From Candidatus Thorarchaeota archaeon (GTDB lineage: Archaea; Asgardarchaeota; Thorarchaeia; Thorarchaeales; Thorarchaeaceae): a DNA stretch of 58,194 nucleotides. Shown here one piece after another: positions 6,807 to 18,929 of the stretch (position 1 is the first letter of the stretch; every line of letters starts with the position of its first letter). Under the pieces are notes generated by a model. The model saw only the letters and a list, made by a program, of their open reading frames with translations, had not been told where the DNA came from and did no database searches. The stretch covers positions 1 through 58,194 of the forward strand of contig DXJO01000026.1 in NCBI GenBank assembly GCA_019057475.1, written 5' to 3'. The position numbers and the translations under genes are program-made.

Positions 6807-8792
6807 TCAAGCAGCATCTCTCAAACTGCGCTTTCTGAGCACATAGAACGCTAGAATCCATACTACGCCTGTAACAGCAAATGCTGCGACAAACTCCATC
6901 GGGATGGATCCCCAGAATTCGGTCAGGGAAGGTGTCCCGACAAAACGAATACTCTGAGTGCTCAACGAATCGACATCATATGAAATCAGGTCAACGAGTA
7001 TGTAGCCATCATAAAGCAGGCTCACTTCGGCTGGCTGCGTAGATACAGACAGGACGAAAGTGGTTGTGCTGTTTATCCACACAATCTCATCCAGTAGGAT
7101 TTCATTGTAGTAGCCGTAGACTCTGACTGGCACTCGCTGGGAATATGAGTATAGATTCAAGTCTTCATTCAGGTCTTCTATCGTTACGGTCAACGTATCA
7201 TCGGTCCAGTTGTAGACCACGCCAGCAAACGAATAATCAGGGAGGAACGGATTGTCGAACCAGGGTAGGAAGAACCAATCCATGTCTTGTCCACATACGA
7301 ACTCGAATGCTTCCTGCAGATCTGGCAGTGTGGCTATCTCGAAATAGTTCTGCTTGAAGAAGTGGCTCAAGCTCTCCACGAATTTCTCATGACCTATCTC
7401 CACCCTGAGCTTCTCAAGTATCAGTGGAGCTTTCGTGTAGTCAATGTATCCCACCAGTTCGGGCCTCTCATAGTTGGACTGGTTTATCACACTCCCAACA
7501 CCGAATTCCTCGTGGTGAGTTCGTACGGTGTCAAGATAGCGATAGTACTGCAAATACTCCCAATCGGAGTAGTAGACTTCACCGTAGTAATTGTGCGACC
7601 AGCAGGTCAGACCCTCGTCAAGGAAACCCCAGTCAATAGAGTCATCTCCGACCAGTTGAGACCACCACTGATGGGCGACCTCATGCACAACAACCAGCTC
7701 CAAAAACTCTGGATAAAGGCTTCCTGCTCTCACGCTCTCAAGCGCCCCACGAGTCATGTACACTTGACAGGGGTATTCCATGCCGCCATAGAATGCATGC
7801 TGCTCCACAATGTTAAGGGTCGAGTACGGATACACCCCATAAGTTTCGTTCAATAAAGTGAGTGTCAGAATGGCCCACTCCAGTACATCATCCTCCCATT
7901 CAGGTTGAGAGTCTGGGAGATAGAAACTACTCACGGTCACACCGTTCACGTTTCCAGACTCCACCTGATAGTGTCTGGATGCTGAGAAAGTGACCTCTCG
8001 CACTGGCAAAATCGGGTCGAAGTGATAGGTCGTGCTCTCTCCGTCAGAATCGCTCCCTATCAGCTCCCCCGTGGCAGCCACGGTCATACCATCTGGGGTG
8101 TTCACGCAGAAATCATAGAACGCCATGTCAATGTAGAATGGATCACCAAAACCCACGTAGGGGTCGGTATTCCAGCCATCGAACTTGTCGTACACACAGG
8201 GAATTGGGTAGCTACTAGAAAAGGTGTAGATCCGTGACTGGCTGCCATCTTCTCCGTGCACGTTCGCCCTGTCAAGGCCGTCAGGGAGGGTTGTGATGAA
8301 CTCAATGTGAAATTCCGTCCTCTCACCAGGCTGTAGAGCTTCAGTCAGGTTCACCCACATCAACTGCTGCTCCCACAGGACACCATAGGGAAGTTCCTGG
8401 GCCGGATTTCCCATTGTAGTTACATTCAAGATTGTGATGTTCCCCTGTCTACTATCATACAACATCCCAGACGGATAGAGATGAAACGGTATTCGAGAAA
8501 ATGGGACCGGATCATCATTGTAGAAATCGACCGTTAGATTGCCTTCAACAATCGACTCAACCTCGTTCAGTTTCACGGACAGGTTGAGATGTGAGAATTC
8601 AGTACCCGTGAAGTTGCCCACAGAGAACTCATCGTAGTCCGCAATGATAATTGAATCGATGACTGGAGGGGTTCCAGACGACTGATACGTATCTTGTGAT
8701 TCCAATAGGCCTTCATCCCCGTTTATCGGGACAAGACTGACAGAAACTAGCAGAACAAAGATTAGGAGCCGTGGCACACCTCTCATCGTCAT
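6807..8792 (-). CDS. M1 family aminopeptidase, secreted and C-terminally anchored
   Basis: GGMEYP, HEVAHQWW followed by LDEGL, signal peptide, C-terminal TM helix plus RKR. Confidence 0.9.
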   Translation of the reverse strand: MTMRGVPRLLIFVLLVSVSLVPINGDEGLLESQDTYQSSGTPPVIDSIIIADYDEFSVGNFTGTEFSHLNLSVKLNEVESIVEGNLTVDFYNDDPVPFSRIPFHLYPSGMLYDSRQGNITILNVTTMGNPAQELPYGVLWEQQLMWVNLTEALQPGERTEFHIEFITTLPDGLDRANVHGEDGSQSRIYTFSSSYPIPCVYDKFDGWNTDPYVGFGDPFYIDMAFYDFCVNTPDGMTVAATGELIGSDSDGESTTYHFDPILPVREVTFSASRHYQVESGNVNGVTVSSFYLPDSQPEWEDDVLEWAILTLTLLNETYGVYPYSTLNIVEQHAFYGGMEYPCQVYMTRGALESVRAGSLYPEFLELVVVHEVAHQWWSQLVGDDSIDWGFLDEGLTCWSHNYYGEVYYSDWEYLQYYRYLDTVRTHHEEFGVGSVINQSNYERPELVGYIDYTKAPLILEKLRVEIGHEKFVESLSHFFKQNYFEIATLPDLQEAFEFVCGQDMDWFFLPWFDNPFLPDYSFAGVVYNWTDDTLTVTIEDLNEDLNLYSYSQRVPVRVYGYYNEILLDEIVWINSTTTFVLSVSTQPAEVSLLYDGYILVDLISYDVDSLSTQSIRFVGTPSLTEFWGSIPMEFVAAFAVTGVVWILAFYVLRKRSLRDAA

Positions 8793-8880
8793 CACTCTCA
8801 TCAATGGTAACAAAATTCCTGAATAAGGATGCCTTTCAGCGCAGATATTCCCAACCTACGAATTAGCCGGGTGAATTGCA

Positions 8881-9050
8881 TCATTCCTGAAGCCAGCTAT
8901 CTTCTTGGCCTAGGGAACCAGTTCCGCGCCGACGCAATATGCAGAACACAATGGTACCCATAATCACTAGTCCCAGAGCTAAAAGTCCTATGATGGAAAC
9001 TACGACCATCGGTGTTTCAGTTGTAATAATCTGCAGAATCTCAATCCTCA
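8881..9050 (-). pseudogene. Orphan C-terminal membrane-anchor fragment of a lost surface protein
   Basis: IITTETPMVVVSIIGLLALGLVIMGTIVFCILRRR resembles the anchors of neighbouring surface proteins. No credible start; the frame runs back through the fadD terminator. Confidence 0.5.
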
Positions 9051-9073
9051 GTCTACTATCTACACGTGGCAAT

Positions 9074-9105
9074 AAAAGGGAGAGGGCGGGGGCTGTGCCC
9101 CCACC
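9074..9105 (-). terminator. GC-rich hairpin plus pyrimidine/U tract downstream of fadD
   Basis: Minus strand GGTGGGGGC-ACA-GCCCCCGCC followed by CTCTCCCTTTT. Confidence 0.65.
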
Positions 9106-9118
9106 TGAGGTATTGCTA

Positions 9119-9224
9119 CCGTTCATTGTAAGTTGTACAAAGTTGGACACCGAAGTCCAGTACGTCCAGAAAACGGCACTGGACTACTCCGTGAGGAACC
9201 TTCGCAGGTGTGTCATATTCCTCA
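9119..9224 (-). ncRNA. Putative structured RNA inside the mini-element
   Basis: TTTATAT box at 9253-9247, about 29 nt before hairpin 1 (TGAGGAA/TTCCTCA with inner CCT-GCGA-AGG). Hairpin 2 is AGTCCAGTGC/GTACTGGACT at 9185-9154. Confidence 0.55.
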
Positions 9225-9307
9225 GAGATCAATGTCGTATTGCTCCATATAAAGCCCACAATAGAATTGTCCACGTATGTCCAACTTTGCACCATCTGTT
9301 TACTACC
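9119..9307 (-). mobile_element. Complete 189-bp non-autonomous IS607-like element
   Basis: Bounded by GG at both ends (AGAG-GG-TAGTAAACAG ... AATGAAC-GG-TAGCAAT). Subterminal inverted repeat 9135-9150 / 9277-9292 (14 of 16). Right-end motif TGTC-N5-TTGTACAA is shared with the element at the window end. Removing it restores the fadD end AGA GGG TAG next to its terminator. Confidence 0.75.
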
Positions 9308-11036
9308 CTCTCTTCTTGAGTTCTTCTTCTCGCAGCTGTCGTCTCAATATCTTCCCGACGGCAGTCATTGGTAGCGAGTCTACAATCGCGACCTCACGAG
9401 GACGCTTGTATCCAGCTAGCCGCTCCTTAGCCCACGCAACGATCTCTTCCGGCGTTGCGGTTTCGCCGTCCTTTAGGACCACATACGCCTTCACGTACTC
9501 ATTGGTTGGGTCATCCTCTCGTGGCAATCCAATCACACCTGCCATCTTGATCTTGGGGTGCTCATACAGAGTATCCTCAACTTCCCGCGGGTACGCCTTC
9601 AAACCACCGACATTGATCATGTCCTTTTTCCTGTCCGAAATGGCAAAGAAGCCTTCTTCGTCCATGTGACCAATGTCACCTGTGAGGAAGTACCGCCTGC
9701 CACTAAATTCTCGGAACACCTCAGCTGTTTCTTTGGGTTTGTTGTAGTATCCTTTCATAACCTGCGGTCCACTGAGAGCTATCTCTCCAACCTCACCCTG
9801 GGGCAGCTCTTTGGATCCTGTTTCAATGTCGACGATTGTCGCATATGTGTTACTGATTGGCATTCCAATTGAACCAAACTTGCGAGTGGTCCTGGATGGC
9901 GGATTTCCGTGGGTCAACGGCGATGTTTCCGTCAGGCCATAGCCCTCAAACAAGGTGCCGCCTGCCACTGACTCAAAGAGTTTGGCCAATTCTGGAGGCA
10001 GAGGTGCGGCTCCAGACGCACAGACCTTGAGGCTTGAAAGGTCGAAATCTTTCACCTTTGGGTGATTTGCGATTCCTGCATATAGCGCAGGAACACAGTG
10101 CAGTATTGTGCCCTTGTTTTTCGCTATTGCTGCAAGCAAATCTGTCATTGGTGGTTTCCCTGCTCTTGGATCGGGGATGCAGATCACCCTATTGGCTTGA
10201 CGAACACAGGTTATCATTGTCAGCGTCAGACCGTAGCTGTGATACCACGGAAGGGCGCCCACGTATACTTCCTCACCTTCTATCAGGTTGTTAGGAGGCT
10301 CAAGTTGAGCCCACTCGTGCATCTGCTCCACATTGCTGGTCAAGTTATAGTGGGTCAACTCCGCACCTTTCGGTGTGCCTGTTGTCCCGCCAGTGTACAT
10401 AATCAAAGCTGCATCTTCTTTGGGGTTGACTGACACTTCAGGTGCCTTCGCCTCGTAGTTGGCCATGATGTCCTTGTAGAAGACGGTGATGTCCTCGTCG
10501 TAGGACGGACTCTTGGGGATTTTGCCTAGGAGACCTCCTATTACGGCTTTCATCTTCGAAATGAATTCCGCGGCGCTACAGACAACCACAGTCTTAACAT
10601 CGGTGCCCTTTATGGCTTCGTATGTTAATGGTGTGAACTTTTGATGGTCAAAGCAAAACACCGCGACAGCACCAGAATCCTTCAACTGAAAGTTCAGTTC
10701 ACGTGCCGTGTACGACGGATTGCACGTAACCGTGATTCCTCCGGCTTTCAAGATGCCAAAGAACACAGGAGGATAATGGGGCATGTTGGGTAAGAAAATC
10801 GCGACCCTATCGCCCTTCTTGATTCCTTTACTAGCAAGGAAATTAGCAATCCTATCAGCGCTCTCTCTCACCTGCGAGTAGGTCTGATTATTGCCGGCCC
10901 ACATTGTGTATATCTTTTCGCCGTACTTGTCGGCAGTCCTATCAAGCATTGCGAAGAGGGGTTCCTCTGGAAGCTCCAGAGATTTTTTCACTTTCTCTGG
11001 CCACTTTCCGCCTTTGTGCCATAACATTTCTTCCAT
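9303..11036 (-). CDS. fadD: Long-chain fatty acid/acyl-CoA ligase (AMP-forming)
   Basis: YTGGTTGTPKG, EGYGLTETSP, TGDIG, DRKKDMI..GG, LPMTAVGKILRR. Confidence 0.93.
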   Translation of the reverse strand: MEEMLWHKGGKWPEKVKKSLELPEEPLFAMLDRTADKYGEKIYTMWAGNNQTYSQVRESADRIANFLASKGIKKGDRVAIFLPNMPHYPPVFFGILKAGGITVTCNPSYTARELNFQLKDSGAVAVFCFDHQKFTPLTYEAIKGTDVKTVVVCSAAEFISKMKAVIGGLLGKIPKSPSYDEDITVFYKDIMANYEAKAPEVSVNPKEDAALIMYTGGTTGTPKGAELTHYNLTSNVEQMHEWAQLEPPNNLIEGEEVYVGALPWYHSYGLTLTMITCVRQANRVICIPDPRAGKPPMTDLLAAIAKNKGTILHCVPALYAGIANHPKVKDFDLSSLKVCASGAAPLPPELAKLFESVAGGTLFEGYGLTETSPLTHGNPPSRTTRKFGSIGMPISNTYATIVDIETGSKELPQGEVGEIALSGPQVMKGYYNKPKETAEVFREFSGRRYFLTGDIGHMDEEGFFAISDRKKDMINVGGLKAYPREVEDTLYEHPKIKMAGVIGLPREDDPTNEYVKAYVVLKDGETATPEEIVAWAKERLAGYKRPREVAIVDSLPMTAVGKILRRQLREEELKKRG

Positions 11037-18557: not shown

Positions 18558-18929
18558 ATGGCGCGTCTTGGTAAGATACAGCCTGAGCTGATGAAGAACG
18601 TTCGTTCCAAACAAGCAACAGTAAGGTACCCCTTCGTCAAAGCGGGGATCAATGTTCCCGAAGGTTTGAGAGCCCGCTGGGATTACAAAATGCCTGAGCG
18701 CTGTACTGGCTGTAAGATTTGCGAACGCGTCTGCCCTGCTGAAGCCATTGAGATGATCAAGTGCCGACCTGAGGATTTCCAGACCAAGACAGGCTTTCGA
18801 CCTATCTGTCATCTTGACAGATGCGTGATTTGCGGACAGTGTGTGGAGTCTTGCCCCAGAGGAGTACTAACTCTTACGGATTCCTTCGAGATGGCTTTTC
18901 TCAGCCGAGATGACATGATTGTCTATTGA
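18558..18929 (+). CDS. NuoI/EchF-like 2x[4Fe-4S] subunit
   Basis: ATVRYPF, CTGCKICERVCP, CVICGQCVESCP. Start trimmed to ATG 18558. Confidence 0.9.
   Translation: MARLGKIQPELMKNVRSKQATVRYPFVKAGINVPEGLRARWDYKMPERCTGCKICERVCPAEAIEMIKCRPEDFQTKTGFRPICHLDRCVICGQCVESCPRGVLTLTDSFEMAFLSRDDMIVY

What the first reader, a model, noticed from the sequence alone, without database searches (positions are those of the whole stretch)
9119..9307. Complete 189-bp element inserted silently at the fadD stop codon
Seen (minus strand): fadD ends AAG AGA GGG TAG and the element's left tip (TAGTAAACAG) supplies the TAG. After the right tip GAACGG the flank restarts TAGCAATACCTCA, followed by the GC-rich terminator. 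Excision through the GG core rebuilds AGA GGG TAG with the terminator 10 nt after the stop. The left tip matches the target (GGTAGTAA vs GGTAGCAA). Inference: a phenotypically neutral insertion, possibly chosen by end-target similarity. The fadD terminator would define the 3' end of a guide beginning UAGCAAUACCUCA, which targets the empty allele.
Basis: partly seen in the sequence, partly recalled or inferred. Interest (0 to 1): 0.75.

Follow-up and report, generated by a model that had tools for sequence, protein, structure and literature searches.

The report
Guide-RNA mini-transposon at fadD stop codon
A 187-base, protein-less copy of an IS607-type jumping gene sits exactly on the stop codon of a fatty-acid ligase gene in an Asgard (Thor-) archaeon and replaces that stop with its own. 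Sister species still carry the untouched site, so this is a clean but fairly ordinary example of a known kind of selfish element.

Summary
The true insert is 187 bp (window 9119-9305, minus strand). The genome holds 13 full copies, and four congeners hold 11-20 matches each. Two congeners have exactly the predicted empty site (AAGAGAGGG|TAGCAATACC). The element is a gene-less derivative of an IS607-family transposon. The genome has two IS607 serine transposases and no Y1 transposase. Thirty independent insertions give the target A-G-G-G|T, while the right end reads ACGG. This matches the published TGGG TAM and UCGG scaffold end of the C. botulinum IStron. The element carries a TATA box and a covarying RNA scaffold shared with the 3' ends of large tnpB genes. 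The flank would therefore serve as a guide against the empty allele (inferred, not shown). "Target chosen by end similarity" fails as a general rule (P=0.8). Two new details emerged. Left-end tips reading TAG/TAA sit on GGG|stop of real genes in 5 of 10 events, against 1 of 23 for other tips (p=0.005). A fresh 8.6-kb relative carries a 13-bp target duplication, unexpected for IS607. This scan had already noted such mini-elements in this and other Thorarchaeota genomes.

The parts
9303..11036 (-). fadD-like long-chain acyl-CoA ligase gene (577 aa). Its stop codon TAG (9305-9303) is the first triplet of the inserted element.
   Evidence: ORF list. Pfam AMP-binding 1.9e-93 plus AMP-binding_C; NCBIfam long-chain-fatty-acid--CoA ligase models, below their equivalog cut-offs. 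Orthologues at 89-93% aa identity in Candidatus Thorarchaeota MAGs.
9306..9309 (-). Target / TAM-like motif AGGG on the left flank. Its last two G (9307-9306) are the crossover core shared with the right end.
   Evidence: Logo of 30 independent insertions: A(-4) 18/30, G(-3) 30/30, G 28/30, G 28/30, then T(+1) 28/30. Published IS607 IStron target and TAM is 5'-TGGG.
9119..9305 (-). The 187-bp inserted element: gene-less IS607-type mini-transposon, full length relative to the family.
   Evidence: Difference between occupied alleles (G000, G001, G006) and empty alleles (G003, G005). Family alignment.
9296..9305 (-). Left-end tip TAGTAAACAG (family consensus TTGCAAACAG). It supplies the TAG stop and a second in-frame stop TAA (9302-9300).
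   Evidence: The same TTGCAAACAG tip heads tnpA-carrying elements in congeners. The orthologous copy in G006 reads CAG TAA, so fadD there gains one codon and stops at TAA.
9269..9284 (-). Subterminal TTGGAC / GTGGAC repeats of the left end. Inverted copy GTCCAA lies in the right end at 9148-9143. These are putative transposase binding sites.
   Evidence: Read directly from the sequence. The same TTGGAC / GTCCAA motifs stand at the ends of the tnpB-carrying element on contig C42 and the tnpA-tnpB element on C53. Binding itself is inferred.
9246..9253 (-). TATA-like box TTTATATG (TTTATATA in most copies), 134 nt before the right end.
   Evidence: Conserved in the copies. Mini-elements of five other genera have a TATA-like box 133-137 nt before their right end despite diverged sequence. 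Promoter activity is not tested.
9119..9224 (-). Predicted omega-RNA (guide-RNA) scaffold of about 105 nt, ending ...GAACGG. Helices: 9224-9218/9198-9192, 9183-9179/9169-9165, 9163-9160/9138-9135, 9158-9155/9148-9145.
   Evidence: The last ~65-78 nt are shared with the 3' ends of large tnpB genes. On 51 sequences, 89% of cells pair against 27-54% when partners are slid; 8 pairs change on both sides; 0/500 shuffles reach the observed score. No Rfam family at E<=1.
9099..9118 (-). Predicted guide: the first 16-20 nt of the right flank, TAGCAATACCTCAGGTGGGG. It begins with the displaced original fadD stop codon (9118-9116).
   Evidence: The position follows published IS607 TnpB logic, with scaffold end UCGG and the guide next to it. 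The 16-mer occurs once in the genome, here, behind ACGG. It matches the empty alleles of G003 (16/16) and G005 (15/16) behind AGGG.
9071..9105 (-). GC-rich hairpin (GGTGGGGGC-ACA-GCCCCCGCC, 9105-9085) and T-run TTTTATT (9077-9071): the likely fadD 3' end signal, now 187 nt further from the stop.
   Evidence: Conserved in all six congeners, with changes that keep the stem. Not called by the strict terminator scan.

Best explanation
This is a gene-less, non-autonomous member of an IS607-family transposon lineage of Thorarchaeota. It keeps the left end (tip plus TTGGAC repeats), an internal archaeal TATA box, and the right end, which doubles as the scaffold of a TnpB guide RNA (omega-RNA).

Shown: it is a dispersed repeat with presence/absence alleles. 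It sits between GG and T of an AGGG|T site. It duplicates nothing at this locus beyond what the GG core explains. Its tip replaces the fadD stop codon in frame.

Inferred from the published IS607 mechanism: a serine transposase encoded elsewhere in the genome excises it as a circle through the GG at both ends and inserts it at another GG. The RNA made from its own promoter, or from fadD read-through, ends ...GAACGG and continues into the flank as a guide. A large TnpB made in trans would use that guide to cut any allele that has lost the element (AGGG + TAGCAAUACC...), while the occupied allele is spared because the right end reads ACGG. Recombination would then restore the element.

The insertion is old: it is orthologous in three species and 7-9% diverged. 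Whether this copy is still active is unknown.
For: - Copies and empty sites. Three further loci have before/after alleles.
- Two IS607-family transposases score above the NCBIfam cut-off (NF033518, 125 and 142 bits).
- No Y1 transposase was found in a 96%-complete genome.
- The tnpA-carrying element type has the same left tip, GG|TTGCAAACAG.
- The right end is shared with 3' ends of 688-763-aa TnpB-like genes (Pfam PF07282; RuvC D/E/D motifs seen in the C42 gene).
- Target logic: A-GGG|T with G(-3) in 30/30 insertions, and the right end reads ACGG. This parallels the published TGGG target and TAM, the UCGG scaffold end, and the -3 G as self/non-self discriminator (bioRxiv 10.1101/2023.11.20.567912).
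- RNA helices covary.
- The TATA box stands at a fixed 133-137 nt from the right end in six lineages.
- ORF-less elements carrying omega-RNAs for TnpB in trans are described for IS605 (bioRxiv 10.1101/2023.03.14.532601).
Against: - No expression, excision, circle or cleavage data exist.
- No Rfam family matches.
- The TnpB-like proteins score below the NCBIfam TnpB cut-offs and are about twice the usual size.
- No two copies in this genome are identical. The tree of copies is a star, so the family may be long inactive.
- This copy's TATA box and left end each carry a change from consensus.
- The guide overlaps a stable hairpin from position 14.
Confidence: 0.85

Rival explanations
1. Inert fossil. 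The identity is the same (IS607 mini-element), but neither this copy nor the family is mobile or used any more. The RNA and guide have no present role, and the empty alleles simply never had it or lost it long ago.
For: Copies differ by 5-16% and form a star tree. The fadD copy is orthologous in three species and as diverged as its flanks. This copy has changes in the TATA box and the left end.
Against: An 8.6-kb tnpA-tnpB relative is present only in this genome, and all five congeners have its empty site, so the machinery acted recently. Scaffold helices and TATA spacing are conserved across genera. On the flank tree the occupied alleles are not one clade (AU p=5e-5), so the locus changed state more than once.
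Confidence: 0.3
2. Domesticated guide cassette. The host keeps this copy because a nuclease-dead or binding-only TnpB uses its RNA to regulate something (TldR-like), or because the element acts as a 3'UTR or stability element for fadD.
For: It is co-oriented with fadD, inside its 3'UTR, and retained in three species.
Against: The guide's only genomic match is its own flank. Three congeners lack the element with fadD intact. The C42 TnpB keeps its RuvC motifs. The element's divergence equals flank divergence.
Confidence: 0.05
3. An IS200/IS605-type palindrome-associated element (PATE), moved as single-stranded DNA by a Y1 transposase.
For: PATEs with omega-RNAs are the published precedent. TnpB genes are common to both families.
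Against: No Y1_Tnp match in the genome, while the control genomes respond. The GG core at both junctions and the G-rich target are IS607 traits. The same left tip heads serine-tnpA elements.
Confidence: 0.03

Closest known systems
IS607-family transposons with TnpB and omega-RNA, best studied as the Clostridium botulinum IStron (Zedaveinyte et al., bioRxiv 10.1101/2023.11.20.567912)
   Same: Serine transposase. GG core at both junctions and scarless donor joint. Target and TAM NGGG with an invariant G at -3. Right end / scaffold ends xCGG. The guide is the adjoining flank, so it matches the empty site.
   Different: No tnpA, tnpB or intron inside: everything acts in trans. Archaeal host with its own TATA box. 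Motif AGGG|T rather than TGGG. The partner TnpB-like proteins are 688-763 aa. The left tip can supply a stop codon, whereas the IStron limits harm by splicing.
PATEs of IS200/IS605 that encode omega-RNAs (Meers et al., bioRxiv 10.1101/2023.03.14.532601)
   Same: Miniature elements without genes that keep both ends and a guide-RNA scaffold, depending on TnpA and TnpB encoded elsewhere.
   Different: A different transposase class (Y1, single-strand 'peel and paste'), hairpin ends and a T/A-rich target. Here there is a GG core and double-strand serine recombination (inferred).
Gene-less IS607 guide-RNA mini-transposons noted earlier by this scan in Thorarchaeota (e1-5537650, e1-5526498, e1-5563383, e1-5673279)
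   Same: Same genome or phylum, same architecture (ends + TATA + scaffold), about 187-300 bp.
   Different: This copy is the one on a stop codon. This report adds empty alleles at four loci, the 30-event target logo, the link between stop-tips and gene ends, and the 13-bp duplication of a fresh full-length relative.

Membership tests
IS607 family (non-autonomous derivative) | Mobilised by a small serine recombinase TnpA (MerR-type HTH + resolvase domain) | tested here: inconclusive
   Two such genes are in the genome (NF033518, 125 and 142 bits, cut-off 110). tnpA-carrying elements share the left tip GG|TTGCAAACAG. That they move this element is inferred.
IS607 family (non-autonomous derivative) | GG dinucleotide at both junctions, insertion at a GG, scarless empty site, no target duplication | tested here: met
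   GG on the left in 28/30 events, and the right end reads CGG in most copies. Empty alleles at the fadD, C45 and C21 loci equal left flank + GG + right flank. Caveat: identity at the two junctions extends to 6-13 bp at three loci.
IS607 family (non-autonomous derivative) | Target / TAM NGGG, with the right end differing at -3 (xCGG) | tested here: met
   A-G-G-G|T, with G(-3) in 30/30; right end AACGG. Compare TGGG / UCGG.
IS607 family (non-autonomous derivative) | Circular double-stranded intermediate | not testable with these tools
   Needs PCR or reads across GAACGG-TAGTAAACAG.
TnpB omega-RNA | Structured RNA overlapping the tnpB 3' end and the right end, followed by a flank-derived guide | tested here: inconclusive
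   The 3' 65-78 nt are shared with tnpB 3' ends, and the helices covary. There is no Rfam match and no expression or binding data.
IS200/IS605 PATE | Y1 HUH transposase in the genome; subterminal hairpins; T/A-rich target | tested here: not met
   No PF01797 match. G-rich target.
Classical MITE | Terminal inverted repeats and a fixed target-site duplication | tested here: not met
   The termini TAGTAAAC... and ...ATGAACGG are not inverted repeats; only a subterminal 12-bp inverted repeat exists. There is no fixed duplication. It is 'MITE-like' in size and dependence only.

The most novel reading that the evidence does not exclude
In this Thorarchaeota IS607 lineage the first nucleotides of the left end can be rewritten with target sequence when the element is installed.

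Evidence:
- A fresh 8.6-kb tnpA-tnpB element has GG+TTCCGTAACTG at both junctions, while five congeners have it once and seven sister copies carry the usual TTGCAAACAG-type tip.
- Two mini-element loci show the same pattern over 6 and 9 bp.
- Tip positions 2-4 are the only hypervariable part of the left end.

This would contradict the textbook 'IS607 makes no target duplication'. It could be the physical scar of TnpB-guided cut-and-copy: the broken empty site primes synthesis inside the left end. As a by-product it re-creates a stop codon whenever the element lands on GGG|stop, as at fadD.
Probability: 0.25. Interest if true: 0.7.

Novelty: new member of a known kind. Interest (0 to 1): 0.45.

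Why it matters
It gives a natural, allele-level confirmation in Asgard archaea of IS607/TnpB logic so far worked out in a Clostridium element: the same GG core, the same NGGG versus xCGG self/non-self rule, and a guide that matches the vacated site.

It also shows one way such elements avoid harm without an intron: landing on Gly-stop junctions with a tip that restores the stop.

The 13-bp duplication of a recent full-length relative is a concrete lead for asking whether TnpB-driven re-installation leaves a recognisable scar. If it does, homing events would become countable in genomes.

Tried and rejected
- **Rfam:** a scan of 8500-9900 at E<=1 found nothing.
- **Y1 transposase:** none found, so the IS605/PATE reading was dropped.
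- **Bacterial promoter/terminator scan:** nothing found, and not informative for an archaeon.
Mean matches were 2.57 against 2.78 at 18,577 random GGGT sites (P=0.8); own-tip pairing gave P=0.054 and tip positions 2-4 gave P=0.13.
- **Simple target-site duplication:** most copies with the TTGC tip have unrelated right flanks.
- **Tree of 44 copies, to ask whether the three fadD-site copies share one origin:** unresolved star; one origin is neither shown nor excluded.
- **Before/after alleles for the two copies on contig C51:** the left flanks have orthologues, but the right flanks are occupied by a second repeat, so only the target could be read.
- **Genome-wide search for GG+flank upstream of every right end:** only C53 (11 nt) and C45 (7 nt) stand out. 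Other hits of 7-8 nt are at chance level.
- **Full ~105-nt scaffold inside a tnpB gene:** not found. In other genera it is again in ORF-less mini-elements.

Full report
**What is there.** On the minus strand the fadD-like gene (window 9303-11036, 577 aa; Pfam AMP-binding and AMP-binding_C) ends AAG AGA GGG TAG. The TAG is followed by TAAACAG..., about 180 bases of repeat...ACAATGAACGG, and then TAGCAATACCTCA. After that come a 9-bp GC-rich hairpin and a T-run. The net insert is 187 bp (9119-9305).

**It is a repeat family.** The genome (56 contigs, 96% complete) holds 13 full-length copies at 84-100% identity. Four of the six same-genus genomes searched hold 11-20 matches each, most of them full-length. 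Other genera of the family share only the last 65-78 bases. The closest fadD orthologues come from Candidatus Thorarchaeota MAGs, in line with earlier notes of this scan.

**The empty site exists.** A query spanning the locus matched G001 without a gap. G006 is also occupied, with a contig break inside the repeat. In G003, G004 and G005 the two flanks abut. FadD ends KKRG or AKRG in both states, so the protein is unchanged. In G006 the orthologous copy reads CAG TAA, so fadD there gains one codon and uses the tip's second stop. This shows that the element really provides the stop.

**The locus changed state more than once.** On a tree of the flanks the three occupied alleles are not one clade (AU p = 5e-5). 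G000 (occupied) pairs with G004 (empty), and G006 (occupied) pairs with G003 (empty). The orthologous copies are as diverged as the flanks (91-93%). The insertion is therefore old, and the locus changed state several times, by scarless loss, re-installation or recombination. I cannot tell which.

**What kind of element.**
- The partial matches to the right end lie at the 3' ends of large ORFs on contigs C53 (763 aa), C42 (711 aa, 688 from the likely ATG) and a fragment on C39.
- These ORFs carry the Cas12f1-like TNB domain. They match TnpB/Cas12f models over their last ~200 residues only, below the curated cut-offs.
- The C42 protein shows the three RuvC motifs in an alignment to a solved TnpB-like chain.
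- The C42 element has a left end, AAAAGGG|TTGCCAATAGCT...TTGGAC..., like that of the mini-element.
- The genome has no Y1 transposase. It has two IS607-family serine transposases above the NCBIfam cut-off.
- tnpA-carrying elements in congeners begin GG|TTGCAAACAG or close variants of it, the consensus tip of the mini-element.

**Target and ends.** I collected 49 copies from five genomes and reduced them to 30 independent insertions. The left flank reads A (18/30), G (30/30), G (28/30), G (28/30). The first base after the junction is T in 28/30 flanks and 28/30 tips. The right end reads ...GAACGG.

The published IS607-family IStron of C. botulinum gives a close parallel:
- It needs a GG core.
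- It inserts at 5'-TGGG.
- Its TnpB uses the same TGGG as TAM, with the -3 G most strictly read.
- Its own right end is UCGG, which spares the occupied site.

The parallel here is AGGG against ACGG. The 16-nt flank behind the right end is unique in the genome. It matches the empty alleles of G003 (16/16) and G005 (15/16) behind AGGG. It remains an inference.

**RNA and promoter.** The last ~105 bases fold into four helices that hold in 89% of cells over 51 sequences, against 27-54% when partners are slid. Eight pairs change on both sides, and 0 of 500 shuffles reach the observed score. A TATA-like box lies 134 nt before the right end. ORF-less relatives in five other genera have one at 133-137 nt despite diverged sequence. 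No Rfam family matches. Because the element is co-oriented with fadD and lies before its 3' signal, fadD read-through would also transcribe the scaffold and guide.

**Was the target chosen by similarity to the left tip?** Not as a rule. Right flanks match the left-end consensus no better than 18,577 random GGGT sites (P = 0.8). Pairing each tip with its own flank is borderline (P = 0.054; positions 2-4 alone, P = 0.13). At fadD the shared GGTAG is the core GG, the near-invariant T, and two further bases. The TAGT tip recurs in three copies with unrelated flanks.

**New observation 1: stop-codon tips.** Tip positions 2-4 are the only variable part of the left end (TTGC in most copies; TAGT, TAGC, TAAT and TAAC in others).

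Tips that read TAG or TAA lie directly after the last GGG codon of a long ORF in 5 of 10 independent events:
- fadD
- a TldD/PmbA peptidase (477 codons)
- a V4R protein (188)
- an acetyltransferase-like gene (163)
- a 62-aa ferredoxin

Other tips do so in 1 of 23 events. In that one case a solute-binding protein gene (its displaced stop TAG now lies behind the element) runs 27 codons into the element. Fisher's exact test gives p = 0.005. Either selection keeps only silent insertions at gene ends, or the tip is rewritten from the target (see observation 2).

**New observation 2: target-derived tips.**
- At the C45 locus the empty allele is CGCGGG|TAACAAATGAG. The occupied allele has GGTAACAAA at both junctions.
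- At C21 the repeat is GGTAAT.
- The clearest case is an 8,618-bp element on C53 (tnpA ... large tnpB). It is absent from all five congeners, whose empty site reads ...AATGGG|TTCCGTAACTGAGGG.... In G000, GG+TTCCGTAACTG stands at both junctions. Seven sister elements elsewhere carry the usual TTGCAAACAG-type tip.

So in this lineage the tip is sometimes replaced by the first 4-11 bases of the target. This is not expected from a 2-bp serine-recombinase crossover. It could be a scar of TnpB-driven repair, a reading that earlier notes of this scan also raised for other elements. I could not test it further.

**Verdict.** The element is a new member of a known kind, and this scan had already met the kind several times.

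Noticed in passing
G000 contig C53:673-9290 (loci L046, L022, L189); empty sites in L184-L188: An 8,618-bp IS607-type element (tnpA at C53:742-1275, cargo, large tnpB at C53:7049-9283). It is present only in this genome; five congeners have the empty site. The 13 bp GG+TTCCGTAACTG stand at both junctions although IS607 is described as making no target duplication. The 10-mer TTCAATGAAC of the right end also follows the duplicated 11-mer at the left end.
   Followed up: partly
G004:C141 (L038), fadD junction: The empty allele of G004 differs from the other empty alleles at about 9 of 15 bases exactly at the junction (GAGAACAGTAATGGATCTGG versus GAGGGTAGCAATACCTCAGG), while the flanks are about 93% identical. 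The GGG motif and the guide target are both lost, and fadD ends ...REQ*. It could be a cleavage-resistant allele or the footprint of an imprecise deletion (AACAG and ATGG also occur in the left end).
   Followed up: no
G000 C51:31105-31293 and C51:75582-75770; G001:C215 (L101, L133): Three copies have an odd right end (GAACAG, GAACCG, GAATTG). In C51:31105-31293 and G001:C215 it is followed by a shared ~110-nt sequence (...ACAGTT.A..TTTTACACC.GAATGATAG.GGT.TCGAAGACTCGTAAGAG...), which C51:75582 resembles only over its first ~30 nt. A second repeat seems to sit where the guide should be.
   Followed up: no
G000: C42:185822-187888, C53, C54:173640, C9:22325, C18:47630, C42:35620, C54:74875: Fourteen TnpB-type zinc-ribbon matches in the genome, thirteen above the Pfam cut-off. 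Four lie in open frames of ordinary size (three of 408-433 aa, one of 166 aa). Seven lie in ORFs of 572-766 aa whose first ~450-500 residues match no Pfam or NCBIfam model (checked for two).
   Followed up: partly
G000 C42:98215-98269 (L025): A solitary left-end fragment (positions 10-64, 89% identity) lies about 780 bp upstream of the full copy at C42:99051-99239. It may be the rest of a longer or nested element.
   Followed up: no
G001:C8 / G004:C77 (L131): A solute-binding protein gene (387 codons) lost its TAG stop to a copy with the ordinary TTG tip and now reads 27 codons into the element. The state is conserved in two species.
   Followed up: partly
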